This document shows, piece by piece, positions 14,718 to 26,177 of a DNA stretch of 64,000 nucleotides. The notes under the pieces are model-generated. The model was not told the DNA's origin and did no database searches. It was given only the letters and a program-made list of their open reading frames with translations. A program made the translations under genes and the position numbers. How positions within the stretch are numbered: the first letter of the stretch is position 1; each line of letters begins with the position of its first letter. The DNA is from Candidatus Parcubacteria bacterium (GTDB taxonomy: Bacteria; Patescibacteriota; Minisyncoccia; UBA6257; HR35), in contig BPJG01000001.1 in the NCBI GenBank assembly GCA_026004495.1, positions 70,470 to 134,469 on the forward strand, written 5' to 3'.

Positions 14718-15113
14718 TTAAGAATAGCTTATTTCTTTTATTTTCTTAATAATTTCTTCTAGACCTGACGATTTATAAATAATTCCTTTTAATCCTAAAG
14801 ATCTAACAAATTCATCATTTATTTCTTGACCATCATCTGTATATTTAAGGTTGGTAATAATAATAATATTAGGACATTTTGATCCCAGGTCTTTTTTAAG
14901 ATGAACCAAAAATTCTAATCCACTTATTTCCGGCATTGATATATCTAATAAAACTAAATCGGGTTTAATTTCAATTATTTTAAGTAAAGCTTCTTTGGGG
15001 TCATAAAAACATTCTATTTCGAAACCTTCTTTTTTTAGAGCAAAAGAAATTAAATCACAAAATGATTTTTCGTCATCAACTAATAATATTCTATAGGGCC
15101 TTTGTTCGGCCAT
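14718..15113 (-). CDS. Single-domain response regulator (CheY-like receiver)
   Basis: ILLVDDE...DLVLLDISMP... receiver motifs. Confidence 0.8.
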   Translation of the reverse strand: MAEQRPYRILLVDDEKSFCDLISFALKKEGFEIECFYDPKEALLKIIEIKPDLVLLDISMPEISGLEFLVHLKKDLGSKCPNIIIITNLKYTDDGQEINDEFVRSLGLKGIIYKSSGLEEIIKKIKEISYS

Positions 15114-15271: not shown

Positions 15272-17161
15272 ATGTATAAAGAAAAAAATAAAAAAGAAAA
15301 AAGGAAAAGTGAATCAAGAAAAAAGGAAAATTTCTCTCAATTATTAAATCAAGAAATTTTGTCATTTAAAAATTTTAATGAATTCAATCCAACGCAAAAT
15401 ATTTTTGAAGTTAATTTAATGGAAAAATATATAATTAGGGAAATAAAAGGAGAAGATACTTTATTGCTAAGAAAAATTACTGATACAGAAGATTTAATCG
15501 ATGATAAAGAAACTGAAATAATCGAAGTTTTAAGTTTAAATTTTCCTGAAAGCGAAGAATACAAATTTCCAATAGAATACTGGATAAATTTATGGATAAA
15601 ATATGGCGGATGGATAGATCTTAATAATCTACCTCAAAAAAATGAGCTTTCAATAAAAGAAGCCAGAGAATTTTTTAGTAAAATTCCTTCAAAAACTGAA
15701 GTAATTTTTGATTATTATTTTTCTACTGAAGAAACATTATATAACTTTTGTAAATATAAATCCCAGCATTATTTATCAAGATATATTAGTTTCTTAAATA
15801 TCCATTTAGAAAACTTTAATTATGATATTGTAGGGATTAATTTAGATTATGAAAGATTTTTAGCCCTAAAAAGATATAAATTATTTGGCCGACCGATTCC
15901 TCTTGAAATTCTAAGCTTAGAAGAAATGAATTATTTATTAAGAAATGAAAGATTAAAAGAAGAATACCTTAGTAAAACAACAAAAAGAACATTTAATTGT
16001 GATTTAAATATACAAAATCCAACTTCAAATCAATACGCCGGAACTACAAGAATTATATATACAAAATTAAAAAATCCAGAATATTATCCTTATCACATTT
16101 TTTTAGGAAATCCTTCTGAAGAAGAAATAATAGAATATATTAAAGTATTATTAATTAAGAACTTAGTTTCATCATTTACCCAAAATCAATTTGATGAAAA
16201 TACAATAATTCAAAATTTAATTTTCAATTGTCAATTATATAAAATTTTAAAATCTGAAGATAAAATAATTCTTTTACCAACTGTTGCTACAATTCCTACA
16301 GCTTTTTTATTTAAATGGCTATTAAGGTATACAAAAAAAGAACTTATTAAAAGAGGTAGAGAAGATTTAGCAGAAAAAATTGTTATTCCTAAATTTTTAT
16401 TCATCAATAGTGAAAGTATATACTTAAGAGAAAATCTTAGTAATGAAGGAATTATGAATCAAATATTTCAAAATTTAAAAGAAGGATTAACAACTAAAAC
16501 ATTAGATGAAAAATTACAAGAACTAAAAAAAGAAATTGAAGAGAAGGGAAAAAATGAAGAAGAAAAGAAAAAATTAAATTTTTTAAAATATATTATCGAA
16601 TTTTCTTTGAATCTAAAAAAAAGATTGTATATAGTTAATAAAGAGTTATTTGATGATCTAAATATTGATAACCTAAGACAAAAATTATCAGAATTAAAAA
16701 TTTCTTTTTTAGATGATGCCACAGGAATGAAAGCTACATATTTTTTGTCCTATACATCTGCTTATTTGGCTATCTTAGATATATTAAAAGATAAACTTAA
16801 GAATGATTGGGATAAAATAAGAGATGAAATTTATGATATTTTGGAAAGGGAAATAATGCCCATTCAATTTACAGCTAATTTAGAATCATTAGATTATCAA
16901 ACTATTTATAATCAAAGTGCTAATAGATTTATTATTACAGAAAGATTGTTTATTGAATTACTTCCAATATTTAAAAGAAAAAAAGAAAAAAAGTCAGAAA
17001 ATCCAGAAATTATTTTAGAAAAACCAGATATAAAAACAGAAAAAATTTTGCACGACTTTAATACAAAAAAAATAGAAATATTAAAAGAAATATCTAAATA
17101 TTTATCTCCATTTTTAGCTGACTATATAATCACTTACCCAAATTTAGTTATCCCGAATTAA
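15272..17161 (+). CDS. Large hypothetical protein with a K/E-rich N-terminus
   Basis: 629-aa ORF with no recognisable motif. Confidence 0.4.
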   Translation: MYKEKNKKEKRKSESRKKENFSQLLNQEILSFKNFNEFNPTQNIFEVNLMEKYIIREIKGEDTLLLRKITDTEDLIDDKETEIIEVLSLNFPESEEYKFPIEYWINLWIKYGGWIDLNNLPQKNELSIKEAREFFSKIPSKTEVIFDYYFSTEETLYNFCKYKSQHYLSRYISFLNIHLENFNYDIVGINLDYERFLALKRYKLFGRPIPLEILSLEEMNYLLRNERLKEEYLSKTTKRTFNCDLNIQNPTSNQYAGTTRIIYTKLKNPEYYPYHIFLGNPSEEEIIEYIKVLLIKNLVSSFTQNQFDENTIIQNLIFNCQLYKILKSEDKIILLPTVATIPTAFLFKWLLRYTKKELIKRGREDLAEKIVIPKFLFINSESIYLRENLSNEGIMNQIFQNLKEGLTTKTLDEKLQELKKEIEEKGKNEEEKKKLNFLKYIIEFSLNLKKRLYIVNKELFDDLNIDNLRQKLSELKISFLDDATGMKATYFLSYTSAYLAILDILKDKLKNDWDKIRDEIYDILEREIMPIQFTANLESLDYQTIYNQSANRFIITERLFIELLPIFKRKKEKKSENPEIILEKPDIKTEKILHDFNTKKIEILKEISKYLSPFLADYIITYPNLVIPN

Positions 17162-18715
17162 CAAGCTAACAAAAAATTTACTTCCCCTACCTTCGCCTTC
17201 TGATTCGGCCCAAATTCTGCCTTGATGAGCTTCAACTAAATTTTTAACAATATAAAGACCTAAGCCAGTACCTCTAATTTCTTTTTTAATTGAAGGATCA
17301 CGAACAAATTCACCAAAAAGCTTACTTTGTAATTCTTTTGACATTCCAATTCCAGAATCACTAACACAAATTATTAATTCATTATTTTGTTTATAAACAC
17401 TTACCTTAACCCATCCTTGAGGAGTATATTTAATAGCATTATCAATTAAATTTTGTATGACTTGAGAAAATCTTAATTTATCAACTTTCAAAATTATTTG
17501 CTCAAGATTAGTTTCAAGACTTAGCTCTAAATTCTTTTCTTTGGCTAAAATAGTAAAATTATTTAAGATTTCTTTAATCAAACTAATAATTTCAACTTCC
17601 TCAAAATTAAGGTCCATTTTACCTTCTTCAATTCGTCGATAATCCATAAATTGTTCAATTAAAACCAAAAGCTTATCAACTGAATCTTTAATTTTTTTGG
17701 CAAAATCTTTTGCTTGTTCCGGCACATTTTCAATTCCATCAGCAATTAATTCAGCATAGCCTTTAACAACAGCCATCGGTGCTTTTACCTGATGCGACGC
17801 AAACGAAAGAAACTCCGATTTAATTCTATTTAATTTTTCCAATTTTTCTCTTAATTCAACTTCTTTTCTTACAGATTGTATAGTTATTAAAGAAACAATT
17901 AATATGAAAATAAATATTATTATTCTAATTAAAATTTCGATAAAATTAATGCTTATTAATATTTGGAATGCTGTTAAAATTAATAATATACTAATTAAAA
18001 TATCAATTAAAATAAATTTAATATTTAAGAATTGATAACGAACTATTGCTAAAAAAGTAAGTAAAATTAGGGGTATAGAATATAAAATACCAAATTGAAT
18101 ATATTTAGCGTTGCCAAATACATTAGGAAATATAAAATTAAAAATTATATGTAAGGTGAAAGTAACCAAAGCTCCGATAAATATTAAGATGGCGGAATAT
18201 TTTAGATTTGTCTCTTTAACAGAATAAATTTTTTTAATAAAACCAACAAAAAAGCTAATTAACAAACCTATTGTGGTTATACCAAATAATACTATACCAA
18301 TATTAGTTTTTACGCTTCCTATAGTGCCGTCAGGTTTAAATGAAATAATTTTTTCGAAAACTAACGGCGTTAATGTGAGTATCGAAACAAAAATAGTAAG
18401 TGGTAATAAAACATATTTAAAAGTTTTAGAATAATTAAAAGAAATATTAGGAAAAGCATAATACAAATTAAATATTGAGAAAGCGTACCAAATAGCAAAA
18501 AACATGTGTATCCTTAAAAAAATAAGTGCAAGGTTATTTAAATGCGGTTGATTGTATAAAAAATTGAAAATACCCCATAAAATAGTGCTTAGACTTAAGA
18601 GTAAATATGCAAAATTAGTAGCACCTTTTCTATTTTGGTTATAAATTATAAAACCTAATACTCCCATAGCACTAGCTACCCAACCTAAGATTATAAATAT
18701 GAAATTTTGGCTCAT
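17144..18715 (-). CDS. Sensor histidine kinase with a ~7-TM N-terminal domain
   Basis: H-box FLSFASHQVKAPM and HATPase_c GTGLGLYIVKNLVEAHQGRIWAESEGEGRGSKFF. Its start overlaps the upstream MTase stop (ATGA). Confidence 0.8.
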   Translation of the reverse strand: MSQNFIFIILGWVASAMGVLGFIIYNQNRKGATNFAYLLLSLSTILWGIFNFLYNQPHLNNLALIFLRIHMFFAIWYAFSIFNLYYAFPNISFNYSKTFKYVLLPLTIFVSILTLTPLVFEKIISFKPDGTIGSVKTNIGIVLFGITTIGLLISFFVGFIKKIYSVKETNLKYSAILIFIGALVTFTLHIIFNFIFPNVFGNAKYIQFGILYSIPLILLTFLAIVRYQFLNIKFILIDILISILLILTAFQILISINFIEILIRIIIFIFILIVSLITIQSVRKEVELREKLEKLNRIKSEFLSFASHQVKAPMAVVKGYAELIADGIENVPEQAKDFAKKIKDSVDKLLVLIEQFMDYRRIEEGKMDLNFEEVEIISLIKEILNNFTILAKEKNLELSLETNLEQIILKVDKLRFSQVIQNLIDNAIKYTPQGWVKVSVYKQNNELIICVSDSGIGMSKELQSKLFGEFVRDPSIKKEIRGTGLGLYIVKNLVEAHQGRIWAESEGEGRGSKFFVSLLIRDN

Positions 18716-19464
18716 TTCTTTATGATTATTAAAATATACCTTGATCTGAAAGTATTTTTTAGATCTTTAAAGTCAATACCTAAATTTTTATATTTTTCTT
18801 TAATTTTTCTAGTAAGTCTTCTAATAAAGAGATAATATTTCTTGATCCCGATTTTTTTTAAAATTTTTTTTATTTCTGATGGTAAATAAGCTGCTCGAGC
18901 TGAATAATAAATTAATTTTTTACTTAGATTATCAGGCGGTATAACCATTTTTAAAAGATAATAAGGTACATCTCTTCTTAAATCTTGAATATAAATTAAA
19001 CTATTTTGTTTTGTCACCCTTAGCATTTCTTTTATTGCTTTAGAAGTATTTTTAAATTGATGCAAACTATCTTTACACACAACAATGTCAAAATAATTAT
19101 TAGGAAAATTTAATTTATGAATATCATCTGAGATAAATTTTGTATTTTTGCAACCCTTACAGTTTTTCTTTGCCAATTGAAGTGCAAATTTAGTGTTGTC
19201 TATTCCGATAATTAAAGCATTTGGAAACCTTAAAGCAAGCTCTTTGCATAAAAACCCAGGACCACAACCTACATCAAGAATTTTAATTTTTTTATTGGTA
19301 TCTATTTTTGTTTTGGCAAATTCAATTAAATTATCAACAAGCGGAATTATCCACTTTTTATAATTTATTGTTGACATTTTCTCAAATTCTTTATGCTCAT
19401 TAATACCCATTTCTTTAGGTTCGGGAATCCTCTTTTTAAAAAATAGTTTTACTTTATTACCCAT
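18712..19464 (-). CDS. Class I SAM-dependent methyltransferase
   Basis: Motif I ILDVGCGPGFLCKEL and post-I IIGIDN. Confidence 0.75.
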   Translation of the reverse strand: MGNKVKLFFKKRIPEPKEMGINEHKEFEKMSTINYKKWIIPLVDNLIEFAKTKIDTNKKIKILDVGCGPGFLCKELALRFPNALIIGIDNTKFALQLAKKNCKGCKNTKFISDDIHKLNFPNNYFDIVVCKDSLHQFKNTSKAIKEMLRVTKQNSLIYIQDLRRDVPYYLLKMVIPPDNLSKKLIYYSARAAYLPSEIKKILKKIGIKKYYLFIRRLTRKIKEKYKNLGIDFKDLKNTFRSRYILIIIKK

Positions 19465-20987
19465 TTTTGTTTAATACCTGCCTTAAAATAAATTGGATCT
19501 TCGTAGGGGTGAAGGAAAATTTCTGGTTCTAATTGTTTTTTATATTTTTCTGAAGCCGTTGAATAAAGATGATTATATTCTGTTGAATGTTTAATTAAGG
19601 AGTTTACTACTTCTTTTTTAATTCGTTCTTTTAATTTAAAAGCCGGTTTTATATTCTTTTTCATCTCTATATGAATATGCAATTTTTGATTGTAATTTTT
19701 ATCATAGACAACTTGCATTGTAAATTTACCTGTAATATATTTTTGTAGTTCTGATTTTAATAAAGCTTGTCTAATATATTCAGGATATAAAATAATTCCA
19801 AACAAGGATACAGTAAAGTCAGATCTTTCATAAACATATACGAATGGCAATTTAAGAATTTTATCTTTTATTTTCAACTTCTCAGATTCTTTAAAGATAT
19901 CGATGCCTACTTCTTTTAATCTTTTTATCATTTCATCAAAATAAATAACCCCTCCATAATCAGGGAAACTATATCTTAGAATAGGAATTGAATCTCCATG
20001 TCCCGAGGCCAAGATTAAGCCATCTTTTTCTTCAAACCAAACAATATAAGGATGGTATTGAGCTAAAGTAGGAGTTCTGGTAGCGTCTCTAAAGAGATTT
20101 CTAAAAACTTTATCTTTTTCAACAGCAATGTGCCTTATTAGGTTGGAAAAAGCTGTTTCATGTGCCATAGTTCCAAGTTCAACTGTACCATAAATATTGA
20201 TATTATCATTAAGCATATTTTCAAGATTGACCTTATTAGCGATATACTTTCTAAAGCTTTCAGGAAAGCTTTCAGCAGCATTTAAGATTCTTATTTTGAA
20301 TTTTTTAAATTGAACCCCGGCTGATACTGCTTCGTCGACTAAATCCTTGACAGAAGGAGGATAACCAACAAGAATTATTTGATCGTAATAAAATGATAGT
20401 TTTTGGAAAGTTTTTAATATTAATTCTTTATTTACTCCTATAGGAGCAACTGTTAATGGATATTTTTCGCTGAGTCTGTAGTAAACATAATAATTATGTA
20501 ACCCCCCAATCCATATACCTAATCCAAAGCTCAAAATAACTAAAGTATTAAATTTATTAATACCCCATTGATTTAAAAAGGCAGTTTCTAGTACATACAA
20601 TCCCTGTTCATCCAAATTTTCTCCTCTAATAAAATAAAAAGGCTCACCAGTAGAGCCCGAAGTTGCTGAAATTGTTGTTAGATTTAAATTTTCATTTGGA
20701 TAGAGTTGTTGATAAGGATATTGGCGAAGATAATTATTTTTATTCATAATTGGTAATTTAGCTAAGTCTCTAAAACCAGTAATTTCTCGATAATTAATTC
20801 CATTTTCTTTTAAGAATTGTTTATAAGCTGGTGTTGTTTCAATGGTAAATTTTACTAGTCTATCTATTTGTTTTTTGCCTAAATTCAACCAATAATCAGG
20901 TGGTCGTGTTTTTAATTCCTTCAATCTTTTATCTATGTTTTTGGGATATTTAAAATATATAAATTTTTTGTCCATTATGTTTCCCAT
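19449..20987 (-). CDS. PaaK / coenzyme F390 synthetase-like adenylate-forming ligase
   Basis: TISATSGSTGEPFYF (the SSGTTG-type AMP-binding loop) and PaaK-like N-terminal context. Confidence 0.65.
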   Translation of the reverse strand: MGNIMDKKFIYFKYPKNIDKRLKELKTRPPDYWLNLGKKQIDRLVKFTIETTPAYKQFLKENGINYREITGFRDLAKLPIMNKNNYLRQYPYQQLYPNENLNLTTISATSGSTGEPFYFIRGENLDEQGLYVLETAFLNQWGINKFNTLVILSFGLGIWIGGLHNYYVYYRLSEKYPLTVAPIGVNKELILKTFQKLSFYYDQIILVGYPPSVKDLVDEAVSAGVQFKKFKIRILNAAESFPESFRKYIANKVNLENMLNDNINIYGTVELGTMAHETAFSNLIRHIAVEKDKVFRNLFRDATRTPTLAQYHPYIVWFEEKDGLILASGHGDSIPILRYSFPDYGGVIYFDEMIKRLKEVGIDIFKESEKLKIKDKILKLPFVYVYERSDFTVSLFGIILYPEYIRQALLKSELQKYITGKFTMQVVYDKNYNQKLHIHIEMKKNIKPAFKLKERIKKEVVNSLIKHSTEYNHLYSTASEKYKKQLEPEIFLHPYEDPIYFKAGIKQKWVIK

Positions 20988-22072
20988 TGTATAAAGGGTG
21001 GTTTTTTAACCGAGATGGCCGATGGTGGATCAGCTTTTCCTATTCTCATTACTGCGGTTAAAATATAATTATTTTTATCTACTTTAAATAATTCACATAA
21101 TTTTTGATAAGAATTATTAATAATGTTTAGCTCTTCTTCATTAAAAATATTTTTGTTTCCAAAATTAGCCTGTTGCCAAAAGAAAAATATTCCTGTAATT
21201 AGATGACAAGCTAAGTTTAACTTTGTAGCTCTAAGCCAAATATTTTCTATAAGCCTACCAAGATTTATAAATTCCTTATCATTATTAATAATAGAAAAAC
21301 CAATCATTGTGTTAGTAGCTGAATACATTTTAACTGTGTCTTTATAAATAGTTCTTACGATTCCTAATTTCTTCATTAATTTAAAGAAAGTAGTATTCCT
21401 TAAAAGTTTAATCATTAATATTTGAGGTGGTTTAAACTCCATTGTTTTGATATATAATCCCCTTTCTCCCTTTTGAGCTTTTTCTTTATCAAAAATGATC
21501 TCATTAAAAAGCAATTTTCTAAGATGGTCATTGTTAAAATTCAAATAAGTGTCATAAGCCAATAAACTGCCAATTTCATTTATTAAATCACCTTCAATTA
21601 TTGAAACCTTACAATTAGAGAAAAAATTAACTTCATTTAATAAATATTTTTTTTCTTCTTCTGTTAAGGCCTCTTTTTTGTAATGGTTTCTATTGGTTGT
21701 TCTTTTTTTAATATATTCATATAAGTCATCTTTCTCTTCAACGCCTGACTTTTCTAAAATAATTGAGGCTATGATATTATTTTCAAATTTCTCATTTATT
21801 GTTATTATGGGATTTAATTTATAATGCTTGGCTGTAATTACTATATTTTCAATTAAAGCCCCACAAGCAATTAAAGTACCTCTATTATTGTAATTTAATA
21901 TTGGATGATCTTTTTCTGGTAAATATCTTATTTTTATCGTATTTTGAGAAGCAATAAATTCCCATGGTTGAGAATTGCTTCCAGATGGAGCATTTAAGCT
22001 TTCTTTTAAAATATTTTCTATTAAAGATTTTTCAGGCATTTTTATTAATAATATTTTACAGCATATAATCAA
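20975..22072 (-). CDS. Nitroreductase-superfamily protein, double length (SagB/ThcOx-like dehydrogenase candidate)
   Basis: LNAPSGSNSQPWEF near the N-terminus and a second RTTNR-type motif mid-protein. 365 aa against ~200 aa for a simple nitroreductase. Confidence 0.6.
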   Translation of the reverse strand: MIICCKILLIKMPEKSLIENILKESLNAPSGSNSQPWEFIASQNTIKIRYLPEKDHPILNYNNRGTLIACGALIENIVITAKHYKLNPIITINEKFENNIIASIILEKSGVEEKDDLYEYIKKRTTNRNHYKKEALTEEEKKYLLNEVNFFSNCKVSIIEGDLINEIGSLLAYDTYLNFNNDHLRKLLFNEIIFDKEKAQKGERGLYIKTMEFKPPQILMIKLLRNTTFFKLMKKLGIVRTIYKDTVKMYSATNTMIGFSIINNDKEFINLGRLIENIWLRATKLNLACHLITGIFFFWQQANFGNKNIFNEEELNIINNSYQKLCELFKVDKNNYILTAVMRIGKADPPSAISVKKPPFIQWET

Positions 22073-22075
22073 TAT

Positions 22076-23188
22076 TTACAATTTTTTTAATTTTTTGAGG
22101 AAATATTTTTGTTGTTTTTTAAAATCTTTAGGTAAAATCGATAACATTTTATCAATATTTAATAAAATTCTTCCTTCTTTAATTTTTCCACCAAGAATAA
22201 TTTTTTTTGATAAATAAGAAACAGCTACACCGCATAAAGTTGCAGCATTACCTAATTGTGGCCAAGAATAAATTGTTTTTCCAACTTCTATTAATGAATA
22301 TAACATTCTTGGCGTTGCTAAATTAGCGCCTGCAATTTTGGCTGTAATCTTTATCATATCTTGAGGATTTAAATTTTTTAGATTTTCGGAAGATAAATTT
22401 CCCAAAAGACCATGAAGAATAGGATAATTAGGATTTAAATCGTATCTTTCGATGTCAATTAAAATATTATCGGCATGGTCTGTTGCCATAATTACAGGAA
22501 TTCTATATTTTTTAGCTTTCTCTCTTATTTTTATTTTGAGATAGAGATTATCCATTTCTTCAATTAAAACATCAATTTTAGGTTTAAGTAAAAAATTATC
22601 TATATTTTTATAAGTAATACCTTCTGAATAAATTTTCAAGCTTGCATAAGGATTTATTTCATAAATTTGTTGAGCACAATAAATTGCTTTATTAATTCCA
22701 ATCGACGAAATAGGATAACGTAATCTATTTAAATTAGATAAAGAAATTTCATCATTATCAGCTATTTTCATATATCTAGCTCCACCTATCATTGCGAGTG
22801 TTAAGGCTATATGAGAACCCACACTAAGACCTGCTATCCCTATTCTTGATTTATAAAACTTTATTTGTTCATCTTTGGTTAGAAGGTAAATATTTCTCGC
22901 AGTTTTAGTTTCAAAAAATTCTTTTTCATCTAAACAGTGAATTAATTTTTTATTCCAGGGGAAATATATCCATTTACCAACTTTATCTAATGTTTTATTT
23001 TTTAATTTTTTCTTTAAAAAATTTTCAAAATCTTGTTGATATTCTTTGATAAATTTATATTTAGGATTTTTAATTAAAAAATAATCTTCTAATTGTTTTT
23101 CGTAATTATCTATGATTTCTGATGGGTTTAATCTCTTTTTTAATAGCTCTAAACTTATATGATGAGCGTTAAAAATTAATGGCTTCAT
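22076..23188 (-). CDS. E1-like ThiF/MoeB/HesA family adenylyltransferase with a ~100-aa N-terminal extension
   Basis: IGIAGLSVGSHIALTLAMIGGARYMKIADNDEISLSNLNRL, a Gly-rich nucleotide loop plus the D-x-D...SNLNR motif. Confidence 0.75.
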   Translation of the reverse strand: MKPLIFNAHHISLELLKKRLNPSEIIDNYEKQLEDYFLIKNPKYKFIKEYQQDFENFLKKKLKNKTLDKVGKWIYFPWNKKLIHCLDEKEFFETKTARNIYLLTKDEQIKFYKSRIGIAGLSVGSHIALTLAMIGGARYMKIADNDEISLSNLNRLRYPISSIGINKAIYCAQQIYEINPYASLKIYSEGITYKNIDNFLLKPKIDVLIEEMDNLYLKIKIREKAKKYRIPVIMATDHADNILIDIERYDLNPNYPILHGLLGNLSSENLKNLNPQDMIKITAKIAGANLATPRMLYSLIEVGKTIYSWPQLGNAATLCGVAVSYLSKKIILGGKIKEGRILLNIDKMLSILPKDFKKQQKYFLKKLKKL

Positions 23189-23212
23189 TGTCTAATTTGA
23201 ATATTATTTTAA

Positions 23213-23223
23213 ATTATATCACA
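23213..23223 (-). promoter_or_regulatory. Extended -10 element (TGATATAAT on the minus strand), about 25 nt upstream of the E1-like gene start
   Basis: Reverse complement of plus-strand 23213-23223 is TGTGATATAAT. Confidence 0.4.
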
Positions 23224-23272
23224 ATCAATATAGTTTTTAAAAAATTATTTATTTTTTACTTATTTATTTCTC

Positions 23273-23288
23273 AATTTCTTAAGAAATT
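23273..23288. promoter_or_regulatory. 16-bp perfect palindrome AATTTCTTAAGAAATT, a candidate operator upstream of the operon promoter
   Basis: Perfect dyad symmetry read directly from the sequence. Confidence 0.35.
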
Positions 23289-23427
23289 AAGAAAAACAAA
23301 ATTTTCTAATTTAATACATACGATGTCTTATTAATTTTTTTCATTATTCATCTCTATAGCAGAAAATAATGAAAATGCTTTGGAGTTTTGGAAAAATAAT
23401 AAAAACTTTGAATAAGGAGGTAAGACC

Positions 23428-23580
23428 ATGAGAGCCGTTCGAGTTGAAGAGCTAGAAATAATTTGTCACGAAGTAAGGCGCCGGATGTTCCAAACCATCC
23501 TCAATGCGGGAAGCGGTCATCTCTGTAGTTCGTCTTCCTCTGTGGAATGCATTTTTAGAAGTCTACAGAAATTTATAAAT
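23428..23580 (+). pseudogene. Transketolase / DXP-synthase N-terminal fragment (~45 aa of homology) behind a strong AAGGAGGT SD, then degenerate
   Basis: MRAVRVEELEIICHEVRRRMFQTILNAGSGHLCSSSSSVECIF resembles the SGHxGxSLSxxEI motif of transketolase N-termini. The ORF stops after 76 aa. Confidence 0.4.
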
Positions 23581-23893
23581 CTATATGTCTTCTGTTTAAT
23601 TTGTTTTGGTAATGTAAAATCCCATTCAGAATCTATACCCGGAGAACTGAAAGTATAAAGAAGTGATAGTCTGCTGTTTATAGAACTAGTAATTTCAAGA
23701 AGATGAGATAGAGTCATCCCATATCCGATAGAAGCAGAAACTGGTTTCTGGCTATTGTAATTGATCCCAAAAAGAAGTATTCTGCTGTCGATAAATTGTG
23801 TGGTAGTAAAATTGCTTCCGTGTATATTCTTTTGCCTACCCAGTTTTGTAGATGCCTCTCGACAAAAAATATATCAACGGCTAAAATTTATTG

Positions 23894-24723
23894 CTAAATT
23901 GAATAAAGCTCGTTGGCAATTGATGAAACCTTTTCATTTGGGTTTTTTATTTTGTGTAAAAACTCCTTGAAAACACCTCGCGCATTTGACTGATTGATTT
24001 CTAAATTTTTTAAGTAAGGGTATATTGCATTAAAAATACTAAGAAATTCTGAGTCAAACATTTGATCTATAACGCGGTCGCTCATGTTTGTACCAATTCA
24101 ATTATATCTCTCAAATGACCATTCGTCGTCTAGTTTTTCTAATGAGTCAGCAACCATGGCTTTTGCACCTGGAGGCGAAAATTTTTTTCATTTAGTTGCT
24201 TTACAGCTGGATCTTTGAATAACGGGTTAGGATAATTTAATGATTTTTCTCCGTTATGTTTAACGATAAATCTTTTCTCCTTGTAGATATCAAAGACCGA
24301 ACGAACGAATTCCTGATACAATTTGTTGTTTGTATTGAAGTAATTGTCGTAATCACAGCTTATCTGAATACTTTTCAAATCTTTCAGAATTACATCGCTA
24401 AAATAATTCAGAACGCTTATTGGTTCAGTAAATTTATACAAGTGACTTTTCGGGATCTTATAAAAATTGAAAATAAGATCTAATGTTCTTTGATCTGTAT
24501 CATTTAGTTTTCGTTTTTGTAGAAAATTTGATACTGCATTGGCAATTTTAAAAACGGTAGAACCGCTATAATGCATGCAAATTGGGAATCGAACAGAAAA
24601 TCCCTGTTTTCGTTTCCATCTAGCCCAAACGTCAGCCAATACAAAAATCCTTGCATGACTTAAACTCAGCGGGCACACCGGATGCATGTGAGCAATATCA
24701 ATAAAATATTTTTTATCTTCCAT
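23894..24723 (-). pseudogene. N-terminal fragment of a class I aminoacyl-tRNA synthetase (MetRS-like), split by a frameshift/stop near 24086-24139, with a degenerate HIGH motif
   Basis: LADVWARWKRKQGFSVRFPICMHYSGST matches MetRS ADVWVRYQRMRGHEVNF. CDYDNYFNTNNKLYQEFVRSVFDIYKEKRFI matches MetRS YDNYHSTHSEEN...GFI. Only ~260 aa are present, against more than 500 expected. GC is higher than the surroundings. Confidence 0.5.
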
Positions 24724-25412: not shown

Positions 25413-26177
25413 TTAAAAATCAATAAATTTAAAAAGGAAAGGGAAAGATGGTGATCCAAGAAATATAGAAGTGCGTAAGTCCTCAAATCGCACCCCTTTT
25501 TCATTACTTTGAATGATTAACTTATATTTTTTGAGGTTCCAATAAGTCTTTATAAAGTTTCTTATTGCTTCTCGTCTGATTTGTTCTATAATCTTTTCAT
25601 AATAATTATCTAGAAATAATTTCTTAAAATAAAATAAAGCGTAAAGATTATCAAGAAAATAATCTCGAGGATCATCCATAACCAAATTGTTTCTATTAAT
25701 CAAATATTTTTTAATTAACTTAATTTCTTCAACTTCAGGTAGAATTTTTATTTCATTAAAAATAATATTTAAAATCTCCCTAATATTTTTTAGATCACTG
25801 CTAAATTCTATATAAACATAACCAAAATTATTGCCAGCTAGATAAGATCCAGAATAAACATCATAAATCAGACCATTTTCTTGTCTTAAAATTTTAAATA
25901 ATCTACTATTTTGCGGACCAGCTAATGTATTTAAAATAACCCCTTGTAAAATTGAATTCTCAACCCCAGTTTTTCTACTAATAGAAGGAATAATTAGACT
26001 AACACTTATGGTTTTTAGGTTGTGGTTGTGATTAAAAGCAAAATTTTTATTAAACCAATCTTTAGAATTAATGTGGATATCAATAGCTTTGGGATTTTTC
26101 TCAATATTATCAAATTGTTTATTCAATATATTTTTTAATTTATTAATCTTAAAGCCCCCTGTTATTGCTAAAATCAA
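25413..26177 (-). pseudogene. C-terminal (inactive-domain) half of an M16 family peptidase. It starts at TTG and the N-terminal catalytic half is absent
   Basis: ILNTLAGPQNSRLFKILRQENGLIYDVYSGSY..GNNFGYVYIEFSSDLKNIREI matches the M16 C-terminal domain consensus (GGGMSSRLFQELRE..GLAYSVYS). Confidence 0.45.

What the first reader, a model, noticed from the sequence alone, without database searches (positions are those of the whole stretch)
17144..23188. Five-gene overlapping operon: E1/ThiF-like adenylyltransferase, double-length nitroreductase-like protein, PaaK/F390-synthetase-like ligase, SAM methyltransferase and a 7-TM histidine kinase
All five genes are on the minus strand, with a gap of about 3 nt between the first two and 4-16 nt overlaps (ATGA type) between the rest, so they are likely co-transcribed and translationally coupled. 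An E1-like enzyme with an intact Gly-rich ATP loop, together with an FMN nitroreductase-fold dehydrogenase (SagB/ThcOx-like), is the enzymatic core of azoline/azole-forming or C-terminal-activating peptide modification systems. Here it is combined with an acyl-adenylate-forming ligase and a methyltransferase instead of a YcaO partner. No precursor peptide ORF is evident upstream. Coupling to a membrane sensor kinase suggests a signal-linked small-molecule or peptide-modification pathway. I do not recognise this combination as a characterised system.
Basis: partly seen in the sequence, partly recalled or inferred. Interest (0 to 1): 0.78.

Follow-up and report, generated by a model that had tools for sequence, protein, structure and literature searches.

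The report
Oxazolone-synthetase-like operon with sensor kinase
This five-gene operon from a tiny-genome Parcubacteria (CPR) bacterium is a split, re-tooled version of the recently discovered oxazolone-making enzymes of Mycobacterium and Pseudoalteromonas; it sits next to its own membrane sensor kinase in most of about 160 related loci sampled from many CPR lineages, which suggests, but does not prove, a small-molecule signalling module.

Summary
Five tightly packed minus-strand genes (17144-23188) encode a ThiF-like enzyme, a double nitroreductase-fold flavoprotein, a PaaK-fold adenylating ligase, a SAM methyltransferase and a multi-TM histidine kinase.

The peptide-modification reading is not supported. 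The ThiF and nitroreductase proteins match the N- and C-halves of NCBIfam 'Rv1355c family' (E 3.5e-97 and 7e-42). Rv1355c is TrzS, a ThiF-cyclase/flavin-oxidase fusion that turns N-acyl amino acids into oxazolones (OxzB and TyzBC are relatives). No YcaO gene, SagB-type match or conserved small ORF was found.

What differs from the known systems:
- The FeeM-like N-acyltransferase is absent, and a PaaK-family ligase is the conserved third enzyme.
- A HisKA_7TM kinase is co-clustered. All four genes occur in 49 of 80 ThiF-anchored genome loci. In 50 evaluable ligase-anchored metagenome loci, ThiF occurs in 46 and the kinase in 41, despite shuffled gene order.
- Many loci add an aromatic-amino-acid dehydrogenase, aminotransferase or tyrosine ammonia-lyase just upstream of the ligase.
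- The methyltransferase is an occasional insert before the kinase.

Best model (about 0.5): ATP-dependent, possibly CoA-independent, assembly of an acyl-amino acid, then cyclodehydration and desaturation to an oxazolone-type molecule that the kinase senses. I rate it a new variant of a known kind. No description was found in the searchable literature.

The parts
23213..23241 (-). Promoter-like site (TTTAAA-17-TATAAT with TG; TGTGATATAAT ends about 25 nt before the ThiF ATG), inside a 239-bp, 11-21% GC divergent intergenic region
   Evidence: This is weak evidence: promoter-like hits in this AT-rich region are at chance level overall (64 found against 69 expected). The position is consistent with the start of the operon.
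22076..23188 (-). ThiF-like adenylating cyclodehydratase; counterpart of the N-terminal half of TrzS/Rv1355c (TyzB-like)
20975..22039 (-). Flavin-dependent oxidase of the nitroreductase superfamily (Acg-type double domain); counterpart of the C-terminal half of TrzS (TyzC-like). The longest ORF starts at TTG 22072
   Evidence: NF005901 E 7.1e-42 on profile 372-713; NF047509 Acg family E 4.9e-28. Residues present in at least 95% of a 54-sequence alignment: APSGxNxQPW, R113, N116, R117, W268, R332. Orthologues are 354 aa.
19449..20987 (-). PaaK-family (ANL superfamily) adenylate-forming ligase, well below the curated PaaK cut-off. Proposed to activate the acyl or aryl acid
   Evidence: TIGR02155 53.8 bits against a cut-off of 646. 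PDB sequence hits are PaaK only. AF2 pLDDT 87.7; Foldseek hits PaaK1/2 and BT_0428 at E about 1e-22, then NatL2, HCL and ClxA. Conserved SATSGSTGEP, YGTVE, D339, R384/D386 and K502.
18712..19464 (-). Class I SAM-dependent methyltransferase; an accessory tailoring gene found only in some lineages, always just upstream of the kinase
   Evidence: PF13847 E 1e-28. Best NCBIfam hits are BioC, UbiE and UbiG, all below cut-off. Present at the same position in L081, L083, L086, L146 and L164, and absent from most loci.
17144..18715 (-). Sensor histidine kinase: multi-TM HisKA_7TM-type N-terminal domain plus HisKA and HATPase_c
   Evidence: PF00512 and PF02518. H308, N-box 422, G1 453 and G2 482 are intact; 7 hydrophobic segments plus about 2 more. 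35 of 37 orthologous N-termini hit PF16927, while the window's own copy falls below E 0.1. Full-length orthologues lie next to the enzymes in most related loci.
14718..15113 (-). Stand-alone receiver-domain protein; candidate phosphorylation partner of the kinase (inferred, not contiguous with the operon)
   Evidence: PF00072 E 8.9e-19. DD13-14, D57, T87 and K113 are present. Similar stand-alone REC genes (E<=1e-20) lie within the fetched flanks of about 20 of the 80 genome loci and next to the paralogous FeeM-HK modules.

Best explanation
The operon encodes a CPR-specific variant of the oxazolone (azlactone) synthetase pathway together with its own two-component sensor.

Shown here:
- The ThiF-like and nitroreductase-fold proteins are the two halves of a split TrzS/OxzB-type enzyme.
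- The ATP-binding and Mg-Asp motifs, and the FMN-type motifs, are conserved.
- The PaaK-fold protein has a complete adenylation motif set.
- The kinase has intact catalytic boxes.
- These four genes stay clustered across many CPR lineages.

Inferred mechanism:
1. The PaaK-like ligase adenylates a carboxylic acid. In many relatives this would be the product of an adjacent ScyB-like aromatic amino-acid dehydrogenase, aminotransferase or FlxA-like tyrosine ammonia-lyase, that is, an arylpyruvate or coumarate-type acid. In this window no such gene is present, so the acid would come from elsewhere.
2. The ligase couples the acid to an amino acid, giving an N-acyl amino acid. This replaces the acyl-CoA-dependent FeeM-like acyltransferase of the known systems.
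3. The ThiF-like enzyme adenylates the amino-acid carboxylate, and the amide oxygen closes the oxazol-5-one ring.
4. The flavoprotein desaturates C-alpha-C-beta.
5. In this lineage the methyltransferase adds a methyl group to the product or an intermediate.
6. The hydrophobic product, or a precursor, is sensed in the membrane by the HisKA_7TM kinase. The kinase then phosphorylates a stand-alone receiver protein. Together this would form a self-contained signal-production and sensing module.
For: - Homology to Rv1355c/TrzS: E 3.5e-97 and 7.1e-42, covering profile positions 36-349 and 372-713. The two scores sum to 469.9 bits against the 476-bit cut-off set for the fused protein.
- Fused ThiF-FDO forms occur inside the same clade: CPR L034 scores 450.5 bits and Algoriphagus L064 scores 747.7 bits.
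- Biochemistry of TrzS, TyzBC and OxzB is established (PMC12856293, PMC10404671, bioRxiv 10.1101/2020.06.11.147165).
- D213 is invariant, and in the phmmer alignment to AclA (9egb) it sits opposite an Asp of that ThiF-type structure. That this is the ThiF adenylation-motif Asp, which is D217 in TrzS, is inferred.
- FDO motifs are conserved.
- The ligase has a PaaK fold. PaaK-family members NatL2 and ClxA form ester or amide bonds, and I know of no CoA requirement for them. The ANL motifs, including K502, are conserved.
- Clustering: all four genes in 49 of 80 ThiF-anchored genome loci. In 50 evaluable PaaK-anchored metagenome loci, ThiF in 46, HK in 41 and NTR in 39. Median gaps are 3-10 nt, and several different gene orders occur.
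- Aromatic amino-acid-deaminating genes lie directly upstream of the ligase. Genome loci: dehydrogenase in 29, with a few each of aminotransferase and ammonia-lyase. Evaluable metagenome loci: dehydrogenase in 22 and aminotransferase in 6.
- No FeeM-like gene occurs in the window or in the 80 genome loci.
- Link to signalling: paralogous HisKA_7TM kinases follow FeeM-like N-acyl amino acid synthases plus a methyltransferase in 3 of 3 CPR contexts examined. Bacteroidota ThiF-FDO fusions sit next to 7TMR-DISM kinases in 10 of 10 loci. Published work suspects, but has not shown, a signalling role for oxazolones.
Against: - No product, substrate or activity is known for any CPR member.
- The ThiF/FDO pair scores just below the curated family cut-off, so its substrate may differ from N-acyl aromatic amino acids.
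- The defining acyltransferase partner is missing, and the amide-forming role of the PaaK-like enzyme is pure inference. It could be an ordinary CoA ligase, or it could act elsewhere in the pathway.
- The neighbouring dehydrogenase, aminotransferase or lyase could supply an amino acid rather than an acid.
- This window lacks those genes altogether.
- The known FDOs use O2, whereas many CPR bacteria are anaerobes.
- Adjacency of a kinase does not show that it senses the product. There is no DNA-binding regulator or exporter nearby.
- The window's own sensor domain does not reach the Pfam HisKA_7TM threshold.
Confidence: 0.5

Rival explanations
1. Same chemistry, but not a signal. The enzymes make an oxazolone-type or related metabolite with a structural or protective role (envelope lipid, pigment, antioxidant or reactive acylating agent). 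The neighbouring kinase senses an unrelated external or membrane cue and merely controls, or is only co-inherited with, the operon.
For: In M. tuberculosis the tyz genes are linked to oxidative-stress resistance and macrophage survival rather than to signalling, and tryptazolones accumulate inside cells. No exporter or DNA-binding regulator is present in the operon. Some loci lack the kinase.
Against: The kinase, including its sensor domain, is retained next to the enzymes across many CPR lineages despite gene-order shuffling. Paralogous kinases pair with an independent N-acyl amino acid synthase module. In Bacteroidota, the same enzyme family sits next to 7TM kinases.
Confidence: 0.3
2. One reading: an E1-like enzyme plus a SagB-like dehydrogenase modify a ribosomal peptide or a protein C-terminus (azoline/azole, MccB/PaaA-like or ubiquitin-like activation). 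The ligase and methyltransferase act as tailoring enzymes.
Against: The N-terminal extension is itself part of the Rv1355c/TrzS profile match, and TrzS is a small-molecule enzyme. There is no YcaO gene, no SagB/ThcOx family hit, no protease or ABC exporter, and no conserved small ORF in the window or in related loci, where the junctions are only a few nt. There is no invariant Cys for thioester or sulfur chemistry. The accessory genes are amino-acid-metabolising enzymes, which is typical of small-molecule assembly.
Confidence: 0.06
3. A cofactor, sulfur-carrier or tRNA-modification pathway: ThiS/MoaD activation, or TcdA-like cyclisation of t6A, as some automatic annotations suggest.
For: JGI names for homologues include 'molybdopterin/thiamine biosynthesis adenylyltransferase' and 'tRNA threonylcarbamoyladenosine dehydratase'. 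There are weak NCBIfam hits to ThiF, MoeB and TcdA.
Against: Those hits are 40-75 bits against cut-offs of 150-650, compared with 326 bits for the Rv1355c family. No ThiS/MoaD-like or rhodanese gene was seen among the annotated neighbours. No Cys is conserved. The constant partners are a flavin oxidase, an ANL ligase and a kinase.
Confidence: 0.03

Closest known systems
TrzAS of Mycobacterium tuberculosis/smegmatis (TrzS = Rv1355c, NCBIfam NF005901), an N-acyl tryptazolone synthetase (Kleetz et al. 2025, PMC12856293)
   Same: A ThiF-like cyclase, including its N-terminal extension, plus an Acg-type flavin-dependent oxidase. Both window proteins align across the respective halves of the family profile. 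An invariant Asp (D213) probably corresponds to the ThiF adenylation-motif Asp (TrzS D217). The trzAS locus is also adjacent to signalling genes (c-di-GMP turnover genes in Mtb).
   Different: Here the two domains are separate proteins. The combined score is just under the curated cut-off. No TrzA-type (FeeM/AHL-synthase-like) acyltransferase is present; instead there is a PaaK-family ATP-dependent ligase, a methyltransferase and a dedicated 7TM histidine kinase. The host is a CPR bacterium, not an actinomycete.
TyzACB of M. tuberculosis (Grigg et al. 2023, PMC10404671)
   Same: A split architecture: separate ThiF homologue (TyzB) and single-polypeptide FDO of about 370 aa (TyzC) in one operon, as in the window.
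   Different: The acyl amino acid comes from TyzA using acyl-CoA. There is no ligase, methyltransferase or kinase.
OxzAB oxazolone synthetase of Pseudoalteromonas rubra (de Rond et al., bioRxiv 10.1101/2020.06.11.147165)
   Same: ThiF plus nitroreductase chemistry: ATP-dependent cyclisation and oxidation of N-acyl-Tyr or N-acyl-Phe to tyrazolones or phenazolones. The authors suggested a signalling role.
   Different: OxzB is a fusion protein with an OxzA N-acyltransferase partner. It was reported only in proteobacteria, and no receptor is known.
PaaK-family ligases: PaaK1/2 (2Y27, 2Y4O), BT_0428, NatL2 (6TM4), ClxA (9S3L); also FlxA/FlxY of flexirubin biosynthesis
   Same: The same two-domain ANL/PaaK fold and motifs. 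NatL2 and ClxA show that the family can form ester or amide bonds; to my knowledge they need no CoA. A tyrosine ammonia-lyase paired with a PaaK-like ligase recurs in some CPR loci, as in FlxA/FlxY.
   Different: About 15-17% identity, roughly 70 residues longer, and far below the PaaK equivalog cut-off. The substrate and acceptor are unknown.
Synthase-plus-sensor-kinase signalling pairs such as Ralstonia PhcB (methyltransferase)/PhcS; and the FeeM-like-synthase + methyltransferase + HisKA_7TM kinase + REC modules seen here in sister Parcubacteria (L081, L084, L085)
   Same: Small-molecule biosynthetic genes, including a SAM methyltransferase, sit immediately next to a membrane histidine kinase and a receiver protein.
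   Different: The Phc comparison rests on my own knowledge, is an analogy only, and involves no homology that was tested. The CPR FeeM modules are uncharacterised.

Membership tests
Oxazolone synthetase (TrzS/Rv1355c, OxzB, TyzB+TyzC; NCBIfam NF005901) | ThiF-like adenylating domain with the family-specific N-terminal extension | tested here: met
   E 3.5e-97, 326.4 bits, residues 23-359 on profile 36-349. The next best ThiF model scores 75.6 bits.
Oxazolone synthetase (TrzS/Rv1355c, OxzB, TyzB+TyzC; NCBIfam NF005901) | Flavin-dependent oxidase of the nitroreductase superfamily (FDO, Acg-like double domain), fused to or adjacent to the ThiF domain | tested here: met
   E 7.1e-42 on profile 372-713; NF047509 E 4.9e-28. 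The gene is adjacent, and it is fused in CPR relatives L034, L054, L058, L062 and L068.
Oxazolone synthetase (TrzS/Rv1355c, OxzB, TyzB+TyzC; NCBIfam NF005901) | Score above NCBI's curated equivalog cut-off (476 bits for the fused protein) | tested here: inconclusive
   The split proteins score 326.4 + 143.5 = 469.9 bits. CPR fusion L034 scores 450.5. Algoriphagus fusion L064 scores 747.7 and passes.
Oxazolone synthetase (TrzS/Rv1355c, OxzB, TyzB+TyzC; NCBIfam NF005901) | Catalytic residues: adenylation-motif Asp (TrzS D217); FDO Arg540 and Gln651 | tested here: inconclusive
   D213 is invariant and faces an Asp of the ThiF-type structure AclA (9egb) in the phmmer alignment. Equivalence to TrzS D217 is inferred. 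R113, R117 and R332 are present in at least 95% of the FDO alignment. No TrzS sequence was available, so R540 and Q651 could not be mapped.
Oxazolone synthetase (TrzS/Rv1355c, OxzB, TyzB+TyzC; NCBIfam NF005901) | Partner N-acyltransferase of the FeeM/AHL-synthase fold (OxzA/TyzA/TrzA) supplying the N-acyl amino acid | tested here: not met
   tblastn with a CPR FeeM-like protein finds nothing in the 64-kb window or in the 80 genome loci. The Pfam scans of the five operon proteins and ten neighbouring ORFs show no FeeM or Autoind_synth hit. A PaaK-like ligase is the conserved third enzyme instead.
Oxazolone synthetase (TrzS/Rv1355c, OxzB, TyzB+TyzC; NCBIfam NF005901) | The product is a 4-alkylidene/arylidene oxazol-5-one | not testable with these tools
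   Requires expression and LC-MS/UV analysis.
TOMM / azoline-azole RiPP machinery (SagBCD, McbBCD, ThcOx) | YcaO cyclodehydratase, SagB-type dehydrogenase and a precursor peptide gene | tested here: not met
   No YcaO gene appears in the operon or among the neighbours scanned. The NTR protein hits Acg/Rv1355c models, and no SagB-type family appears among its NCBIfam or Pfam matches. No conserved small ORF was found, and junctions are only a few nt in relatives.
MccB/PaaA-type peptide-adenylating ThiF enzymes | Cognate short precursor peptide and a peptide-clamp domain | tested here: not met
ThiF/MoeB sulfur-carrier activation; TcdA | Equivalog-level similarity; a ThiS/MoaD partner; conserved Cys or rhodanese domain | tested here: not met
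   Scores are 25-76 bits against cut-offs of 150-650. There is no invariant Cys. No ThiS/MoaD gene was seen among the annotated neighbours.
Phenylacetate-CoA ligase PaaK (TIGR02155) | Equivalog score; PaaK fold with ANL motifs | tested here: not met
   53.8 bits against a cut-off of 646.3. The fold and motifs are present. It is therefore a PaaK-family member, but not PaaK itself.
HisKA_7TM sensor histidine kinases (PF16927) | N-terminal 7TM domain matching PF16927, followed by HisKA and HATPase_c | tested here: inconclusive
   The window's own N-terminus gives no hit at E<=1. However, 35 of 37 aligned orthologues do hit (best E 3.9e-15), and the window's kinase is 32% identical over 496 aa to a PF16927 kinase in L081. 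The kinase core is met.

The most novel reading that the evidence does not exclude
Many CPR/Patescibacteria lineages carry a previously unrecognised autoinducer-type system. In it, an aromatic-amino-acid-derived oxazolone (or its methylated or ring-opened derivative) is built by an ATP-only, CoA-independent route (PaaK-like amide ligase, then ThiF cyclase, then flavin desaturase). The molecule is detected by a cognate HisKA_7TM histidine kinase that signals to a stand-alone receiver. This would give these ultra-small episymbionts a private chemical channel, and it would identify the first receptor class for oxazolone natural products.
Probability: 0.3. Interest if true: 0.85.

Novelty: new variant of a known kind. 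Interest (0 to 1): 0.66.

Why it matters
- **Open question about oxazolones.** They were discovered as natural products only in 2020-2025, and their biological role is unknown. The authors speculate about signalling, but no receptor is known. A gene cassette that keeps the oxazolone-synthetase core next to a dedicated 7TM sensor kinase, in CPR bacteria and again in Bacteroidota, gives a concrete receptor candidate that can be tested.
- **Unusual investment for a CPR genome.** CPR bacteria have genomes of about 0.6-1 Mb with very little biosynthesis. A four-gene small-molecule cassette retained in many CPR lineages implies an important function, possibly in communication among themselves or with their host.
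- **New enzymology.** A PaaK-family ligase replacing the acyl-CoA-dependent acyltransferase would be a new ATP-driven route to N-acyl amino acids, and a potentially useful biocatalyst set.

Tried and rejected
1. **Alternative genetic code (UGA sense).** I considered this because the window is 24% GC and has fragmented ORFs nearby. The five genes are intact under code 11 and 14 of 69 long ORFs end in TGA, so it was not pursued.
2. **Structured RNA or riboswitch upstream.** Rfam finds nothing at 23000-24400 at E<=0.1, and only four tRNAs in the whole window.
3. **Precursor-peptide search.** The small ORFs at 23189-23430 (51, 32 and 20 aa) are not Cys/Ser/Thr-rich or GG-terminated, and have no conserved counterparts next to the clusters in 85 loci.
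4. **FeeM/OxzA-like acyltransferase.** Searched for in the window and loci; none found.
5. **The Bacteroidota 230-aa neighbour (c5).** I suspected an OxzA analogue, but it has no Pfam, NCBIfam or PDB match and no hhalign similarity to FeeM-like proteins. It is left unassigned.
6. **Function of AclA (PDB 9egb), the closest solved structure to the ThiF protein.** Three literature searches found nothing.
7. **AFDB fold search.** The library was unavailable, so TrzS and OxzB models could not be compared directly, and TrzS R540/Q651 could not be mapped.
8. **Promoter and terminator scans.** At chance level in this AT-rich DNA. Only the position of the TGnTATAAT element upstream of the first gene is noted.
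9. **Literature on this cassette in CPR.** None found.

Full report
**Source and context.** The window is about 24% GC. The first protein of the finding is 100% identical to 'hypothetical protein KatS3mg094_088 [Candidatus Parcubacteria bacterium]', which lies on a 634-kb contig. The window therefore comes from a CPR/Patescibacteria genome.

**Observation.** The junctions read from the sequence are:
- ThiF TAA, then 3 nt, then TTG. More likely the next gene starts at an ATG at 22039, which gives a 36-nt gap and a 354-aa product, the length of the orthologues.
- NTR/ligase: 13-nt overlap, or a 1-nt TAATG overlap from the start NCBI uses.
- Ligase/methyltransferase: 16-nt overlap.
- Methyltransferase/kinase: ATGA.

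The operon is bounded as follows:
- Upstream lies a 239-bp intergenic region of 11-21% GC. It contains a TGnTATAAT element about 25 nt before the ThiF ATG, and a divergent plus-strand ORF with an AAGGAGG ribosome-binding site.
- Downstream, a convergent 629-aa ORF overlaps the kinase stop by 18 nt.

The only refinements are the likely NTR start, and that the kinase has seven hydrophobic segments plus about two more.

**Identity of the two core enzymes.**
- NCBIfam places the ThiF-like protein on positions 36-349, and the nitroreductase-fold protein on positions 372-713, of the 722-residue model NF005901 'Rv1355c family protein'. The E-values are 3.5e-97 and 7.1e-42. All ThiF, MoeB and TcdA models score 25-76 bits, far below their cut-offs.
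- The second protein also hits the Acg-family FMN oxidoreductase model (4.9e-28). No SagB/ThcOx-type family appears among its matches.
[quoted passage not shown] TrzS converts N-acyl-tryptophan, made by the FeeM/AHL-synthase-like acyltransferase TrzA, into N-acyl tryptazolones by ATP-dependent cyclisation followed by O2-dependent desaturation (PMC12856293).
- The related TyzACB system has separate ThiF (TyzB) and FDO (TyzC) proteins (PMC10404671). OxzAB of Pseudoalteromonas rubra is the founding oxazolone synthetase (bioRxiv 10.1101/2020.06.11.147165).
- The window therefore carries a split homologue of this enzyme pair.
- Sequence features agree. In 20 diverse homologues the Gly-rich loop (GLSVGS), D144/D146, the NLNRxR motif, K167 and D213 are invariant, and no cysteine is. 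In the phmmer alignment to the ThiF-type structure AclA (9egb), D213 faces an Asp of the target. I infer that this is the ThiF adenylation-motif Asp whose counterpart in TrzS (D217) is required for cyclisation.
- In a 54-sequence FDO alignment, APSGxNxQPW, R113, N116, R117, W268 and R332 are present in at least 95% of sequences.
- The N-terminal ~95 residues have a winged-helix-like order of secondary-structure elements. This region lies within the match to the Rv1355c/TrzS profile (profile positions 36 onward), so it does not by itself argue for a peptide substrate.

**The other three proteins.**
- *Ligase.* The 508/512-aa protein passes no Pfam family threshold and reaches only 53.8 bits on the PaaK equivalog, whose cut-off is 646. 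Its AlphaFold model (pLDDT 87.7) matches PaaK1/PaaK2 and BT_0428 at E about 1e-22. Next come NatL2, 2-hydroxyisobutyryl-CoA ligase and ClxA. NatL2 and ClxA are PaaK-family enzymes that form ester or amide bonds in benzoxazole biosynthesis (PMC7204872, PMC12519233). That they need no CoA is from my own knowledge, not from the abstracts retrieved. The ANL motifs are conserved: SATSGSTGEP, YGTVE, D339, R384/D386 and the C-terminal K502.
- *Methyltransferase.* It is a generic class I SAM enzyme. The best sub-threshold hits are BioC, UbiE and UbiG.
- *Kinase.* It has an intact H-box (H308), N-box, G1 and G2. Its own N-terminus matches no Pfam family, but 35 of 37 aligned orthologues match PF16927 HisKA_7TM, with a best E of 3.9e-15.

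**Conservation of the neighbourhood.** This is the decisive evidence for functional linkage.
- *Scan anchored on ThiF.* A scan of one genome per species found at least 574 relatives, and I examined the best 80 loci. tblastn with the window's proteins plus ORF clustering show the ligase in 63 loci, the FDO in 65 (separate or fused), the kinase in 68, and all four in 49. Many of the remaining loci are truncated contigs.
- *Taxa.* The loci carry labels including Paceibacterota, Liptonbacteria, Wolfebacteria, Kaiserbacteria, Doudnabacteria, Magasanikbacteria, Yanofskybacteria, Berkelbacteria, Levyibacteriota and Saccharimonadales.
- *Spacing and order.* Median intergenic gaps are 3-10 nt. The usual order is ligase-ThiF-FDO-kinase. 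The window and a few others have ThiF-FDO-ligase or ThiF-ligase-FDO orders.
- *Scan anchored on the ligase.* An independent scan of metagenome contigs gave 50 evaluable loci: ThiF in 46, kinase in 41, FDO in 39. Further orders appear here, including divergent arrangements. Retention of the cluster through rearrangement indicates selection for linkage.
- *Fusions.* ThiF-FDO fusions of 731-765 aa occur within the CPR clade (L034, L054, L058, L062, L068). L034 scores 450.5 bits and L062 381.8 bits on NF005901.

**Accessory genes.** They point to small-molecule, aromatic amino-acid chemistry.
- Immediately upstream of the ligase, many loci carry a ~350-aa Glu/Leu/Phe/Val-family dehydrogenase. It is present in 29 genome loci and 22 of the 50 evaluable metagenome loci. 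Its best match is the tryptophan dehydrogenase ScyB (E 5.8e-74, below cut-off).
- Others carry a class I/II aminotransferase instead (about 5 genome loci and 6 metagenome loci).
- Others carry an aromatic ammonia-lyase whose best match is the flexirubin tyrosine ammonia-lyase FlxA (E 5.7e-188; about 4 loci).
- These are three non-homologous ways of deaminating, or interconverting, an aromatic amino acid. They sit next to an acid-activating enzyme.
- The window has none of these genes.
- The methyltransferase is not general. It is absent from the 80 genome loci at E<1e-8. It is present, always between the FDO and the kinase, in the closest relatives (L081 at 76% and L083 at 71% ThiF identity) and in three metagenome loci (L086, L146, L164).
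- A FeeM-like acyltransferase, the defining partner in OxzAB, TyzACB and TrzAS, is absent from the window and from the 80 genome loci.

**Links to signalling.**
- *Receiver proteins.* Stand-alone receiver proteins similar to the window's (14718-15113; DD, D57, T87 and K113 present) occur within the fetched flanks of about 20 of the 80 genome loci.
- *A parallel module in sister Parcubacteria.* FeeM-like N-acyl amino acid synthases are rare in these organisms, with 7 homologues in 5.8 billion proteins. In all three contexts examined they lie in the order methyltransferase, FeeM-like synthase, HisKA_7TM kinase, and in two of the three a receiver gene follows (L081, L084, L085). The L081 kinase is a 32%-identical paralogue of the window's kinase. 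Thus two different routes to acyl-amino-acid-type molecules are each paired with this kinase family.
- *Bacteroidota.* In Algoriphagus, Sphingobacterium and relatives, a bona fide Rv1355c-family fusion (747.7 bits) is followed by a conserved 230-aa protein of unknown family, then a 7TMR-DISM histidine kinase and a REC-kinase hybrid. This holds in 10 of 10 loci.
- *Published hints.* Work on Mtb notes c-di-GMP genes next to trzAS, and structural similarity of oxazolones to quorum signals. No receptor is known.

**Mechanistic model.** Steps 1 to 5 below are inferred. What is shown is summarised after them.
1. The PaaK-like ligase adenylates a carboxylic acid. In many relatives this would be an arylpyruvate or coumarate-type acid made next door. 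In this window the acid would come from elsewhere.
2. The ligase couples the acid to an amino acid. This replaces the acyl-CoA-dependent acyltransferase, a plausible adaptation in organisms with little lipid or CoA metabolism.
3. The ThiF-like enzyme cyclodehydrates the N-acyl amino acid to an oxazol-5-one, and the FDO desaturates it.
4. The methyltransferase tailors the product in this lineage.
5. The kinase senses the hydrophobic product and signals to a receiver protein.

Shown here are the homology, the motif integrity and the conserved clustering. I put about 0.5 on this composite. Within it, homology to oxazolone synthetases is near-certain, and the oxazolone-type chemistry is likely (about 0.65). 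The ligase's amide-forming role and the kinase-as-receptor idea are each roughly even odds.

**Rivals.**
- *Same chemistry, non-signalling product.* The kinase would respond to something else (0.3). This is supported by the Mtb stress phenotypes and the intracellular accumulation of tryptazolones.
It lacks a YcaO gene, a SagB-type enzyme, a precursor, a protease and a transporter.
- *Sulfur-carrier, cofactor or tRNA roles* (0.03). These are excluded by the scores, by the lack of partners and by the lack of conserved Cys.

**Caveats.**
- No TrzS or OxzB sequence was available, so a direct phylogeny and the mapping of R540/Q651 were not possible.
- The AFDB library was unavailable.
- The function of AclA is unknown to me.
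- The known FDOs need O2, whereas many CPR bacteria are anaerobes.
- The upstream dehydrogenase, aminotransferase or lyase could supply the amino acid rather than the acid. MIO-dependent enzymes of the ammonia-lyase family also include aminomutases.

**Novelty and verdict.**
- The enzymatic core is a known kind (oxazolone synthetase, 2020-2025).
- The CPR cassette is a new variant in three respects: a PaaK-family ligase replaces the acyltransferase, the distribution across CPR is wide, and the cassette is conserved next to a HisKA_7TM kinase.
- I found no description of it in the searchable literature.
- Interest is moderately high (0.66). It offers a testable receptor candidate for oxazolones, and it hints at chemical signalling in ultra-small symbiotic bacteria. 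Everything beyond homology and synteny still needs experiments.

Noticed in passing
window 23428-24138 (+) and 24139-24723 (-): A ~700-bp stretch of about 35% GC has no long ORF. A plus-strand ORF at 23428 has a strong AAGGAGG ribosome-binding site, and its 76-aa product resembles the N-terminus of TPP enzymes (transketolase/DXS; AGSGH motif; PF13292 E 0.029) before the frame breaks. The adjacent 194-aa minus-strand ORF matches only a fragment of class I (Met) tRNA synthetase. These look like decayed gene remnants, or assembly frameshifts, directly upstream of the operon.
   Followed up: partly
window 15272-17161 (+): A 629-aa Lys/Glu-rich ORF with no Pfam family. It is convergent with the kinase gene and overlaps its stop by 18 nt. 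It separates the kinase from the stand-alone receiver gene, and it has no counterpart in any of the 80 genome loci.
   Followed up: partly
L081 3561-7109; L084 6276-10647; L085 6262-9358: Sister Parcubacteria carry a second, parallel module: SAM methyltransferase, then a FeeM/AHL-synthase-like N-acyl amino acid synthase (two copies in L084), then a HisKA_7TM histidine kinase, followed in L081 and L084 by a stand-alone receiver. In L081 it lies only about 2 kb upstream of the ThiF operon. Such synthases are very rare in CPR (7 homologues found).
   Followed up: partly
L060, L063, L064, L072, L074, L076-L080 (for example L064 7884-14054): In Bacteroidota (Algoriphagus, Sphingobacterium and relatives), a full Rv1355c-family ThiF-FDO fusion is followed by a conserved ~230-aa protein with no detectable family, a 7TMR-DISM histidine kinase and a REC-kinase hybrid, with a small REC protein upstream. 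The ~230-aa protein may be an unrecognised acyltransferase analogue.
   Followed up: partly
L006, L018, L031, L041, L055 (between the FDO and the kinase): Several CPR loci carry a second, divergent FDO-like paralogue of about 305-325 aa in tandem after the first.
   Followed up: no
window 25413-26177 (-): A 254-aa ORF with a TTG start matches only the inactive C-terminal domain of M16 peptidases. It may be truncated or mis-started.
   Followed up: no
L083 13509-18131: A 1540-aa RtcB RNA ligase interrupted by intein and LAGLIDADG domains lies just downstream of the cluster in a close relative.
   Followed up: no
PDB 9egb/9egc/9egd: The closest solved structure to the ThiF-like protein is 'AclA from Tenacibaculum discolor in complex with substrate' (released 2025). 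I could not find what it acts on. Its substrate could bear on the chemistry proposed here.
   Followed up: partly
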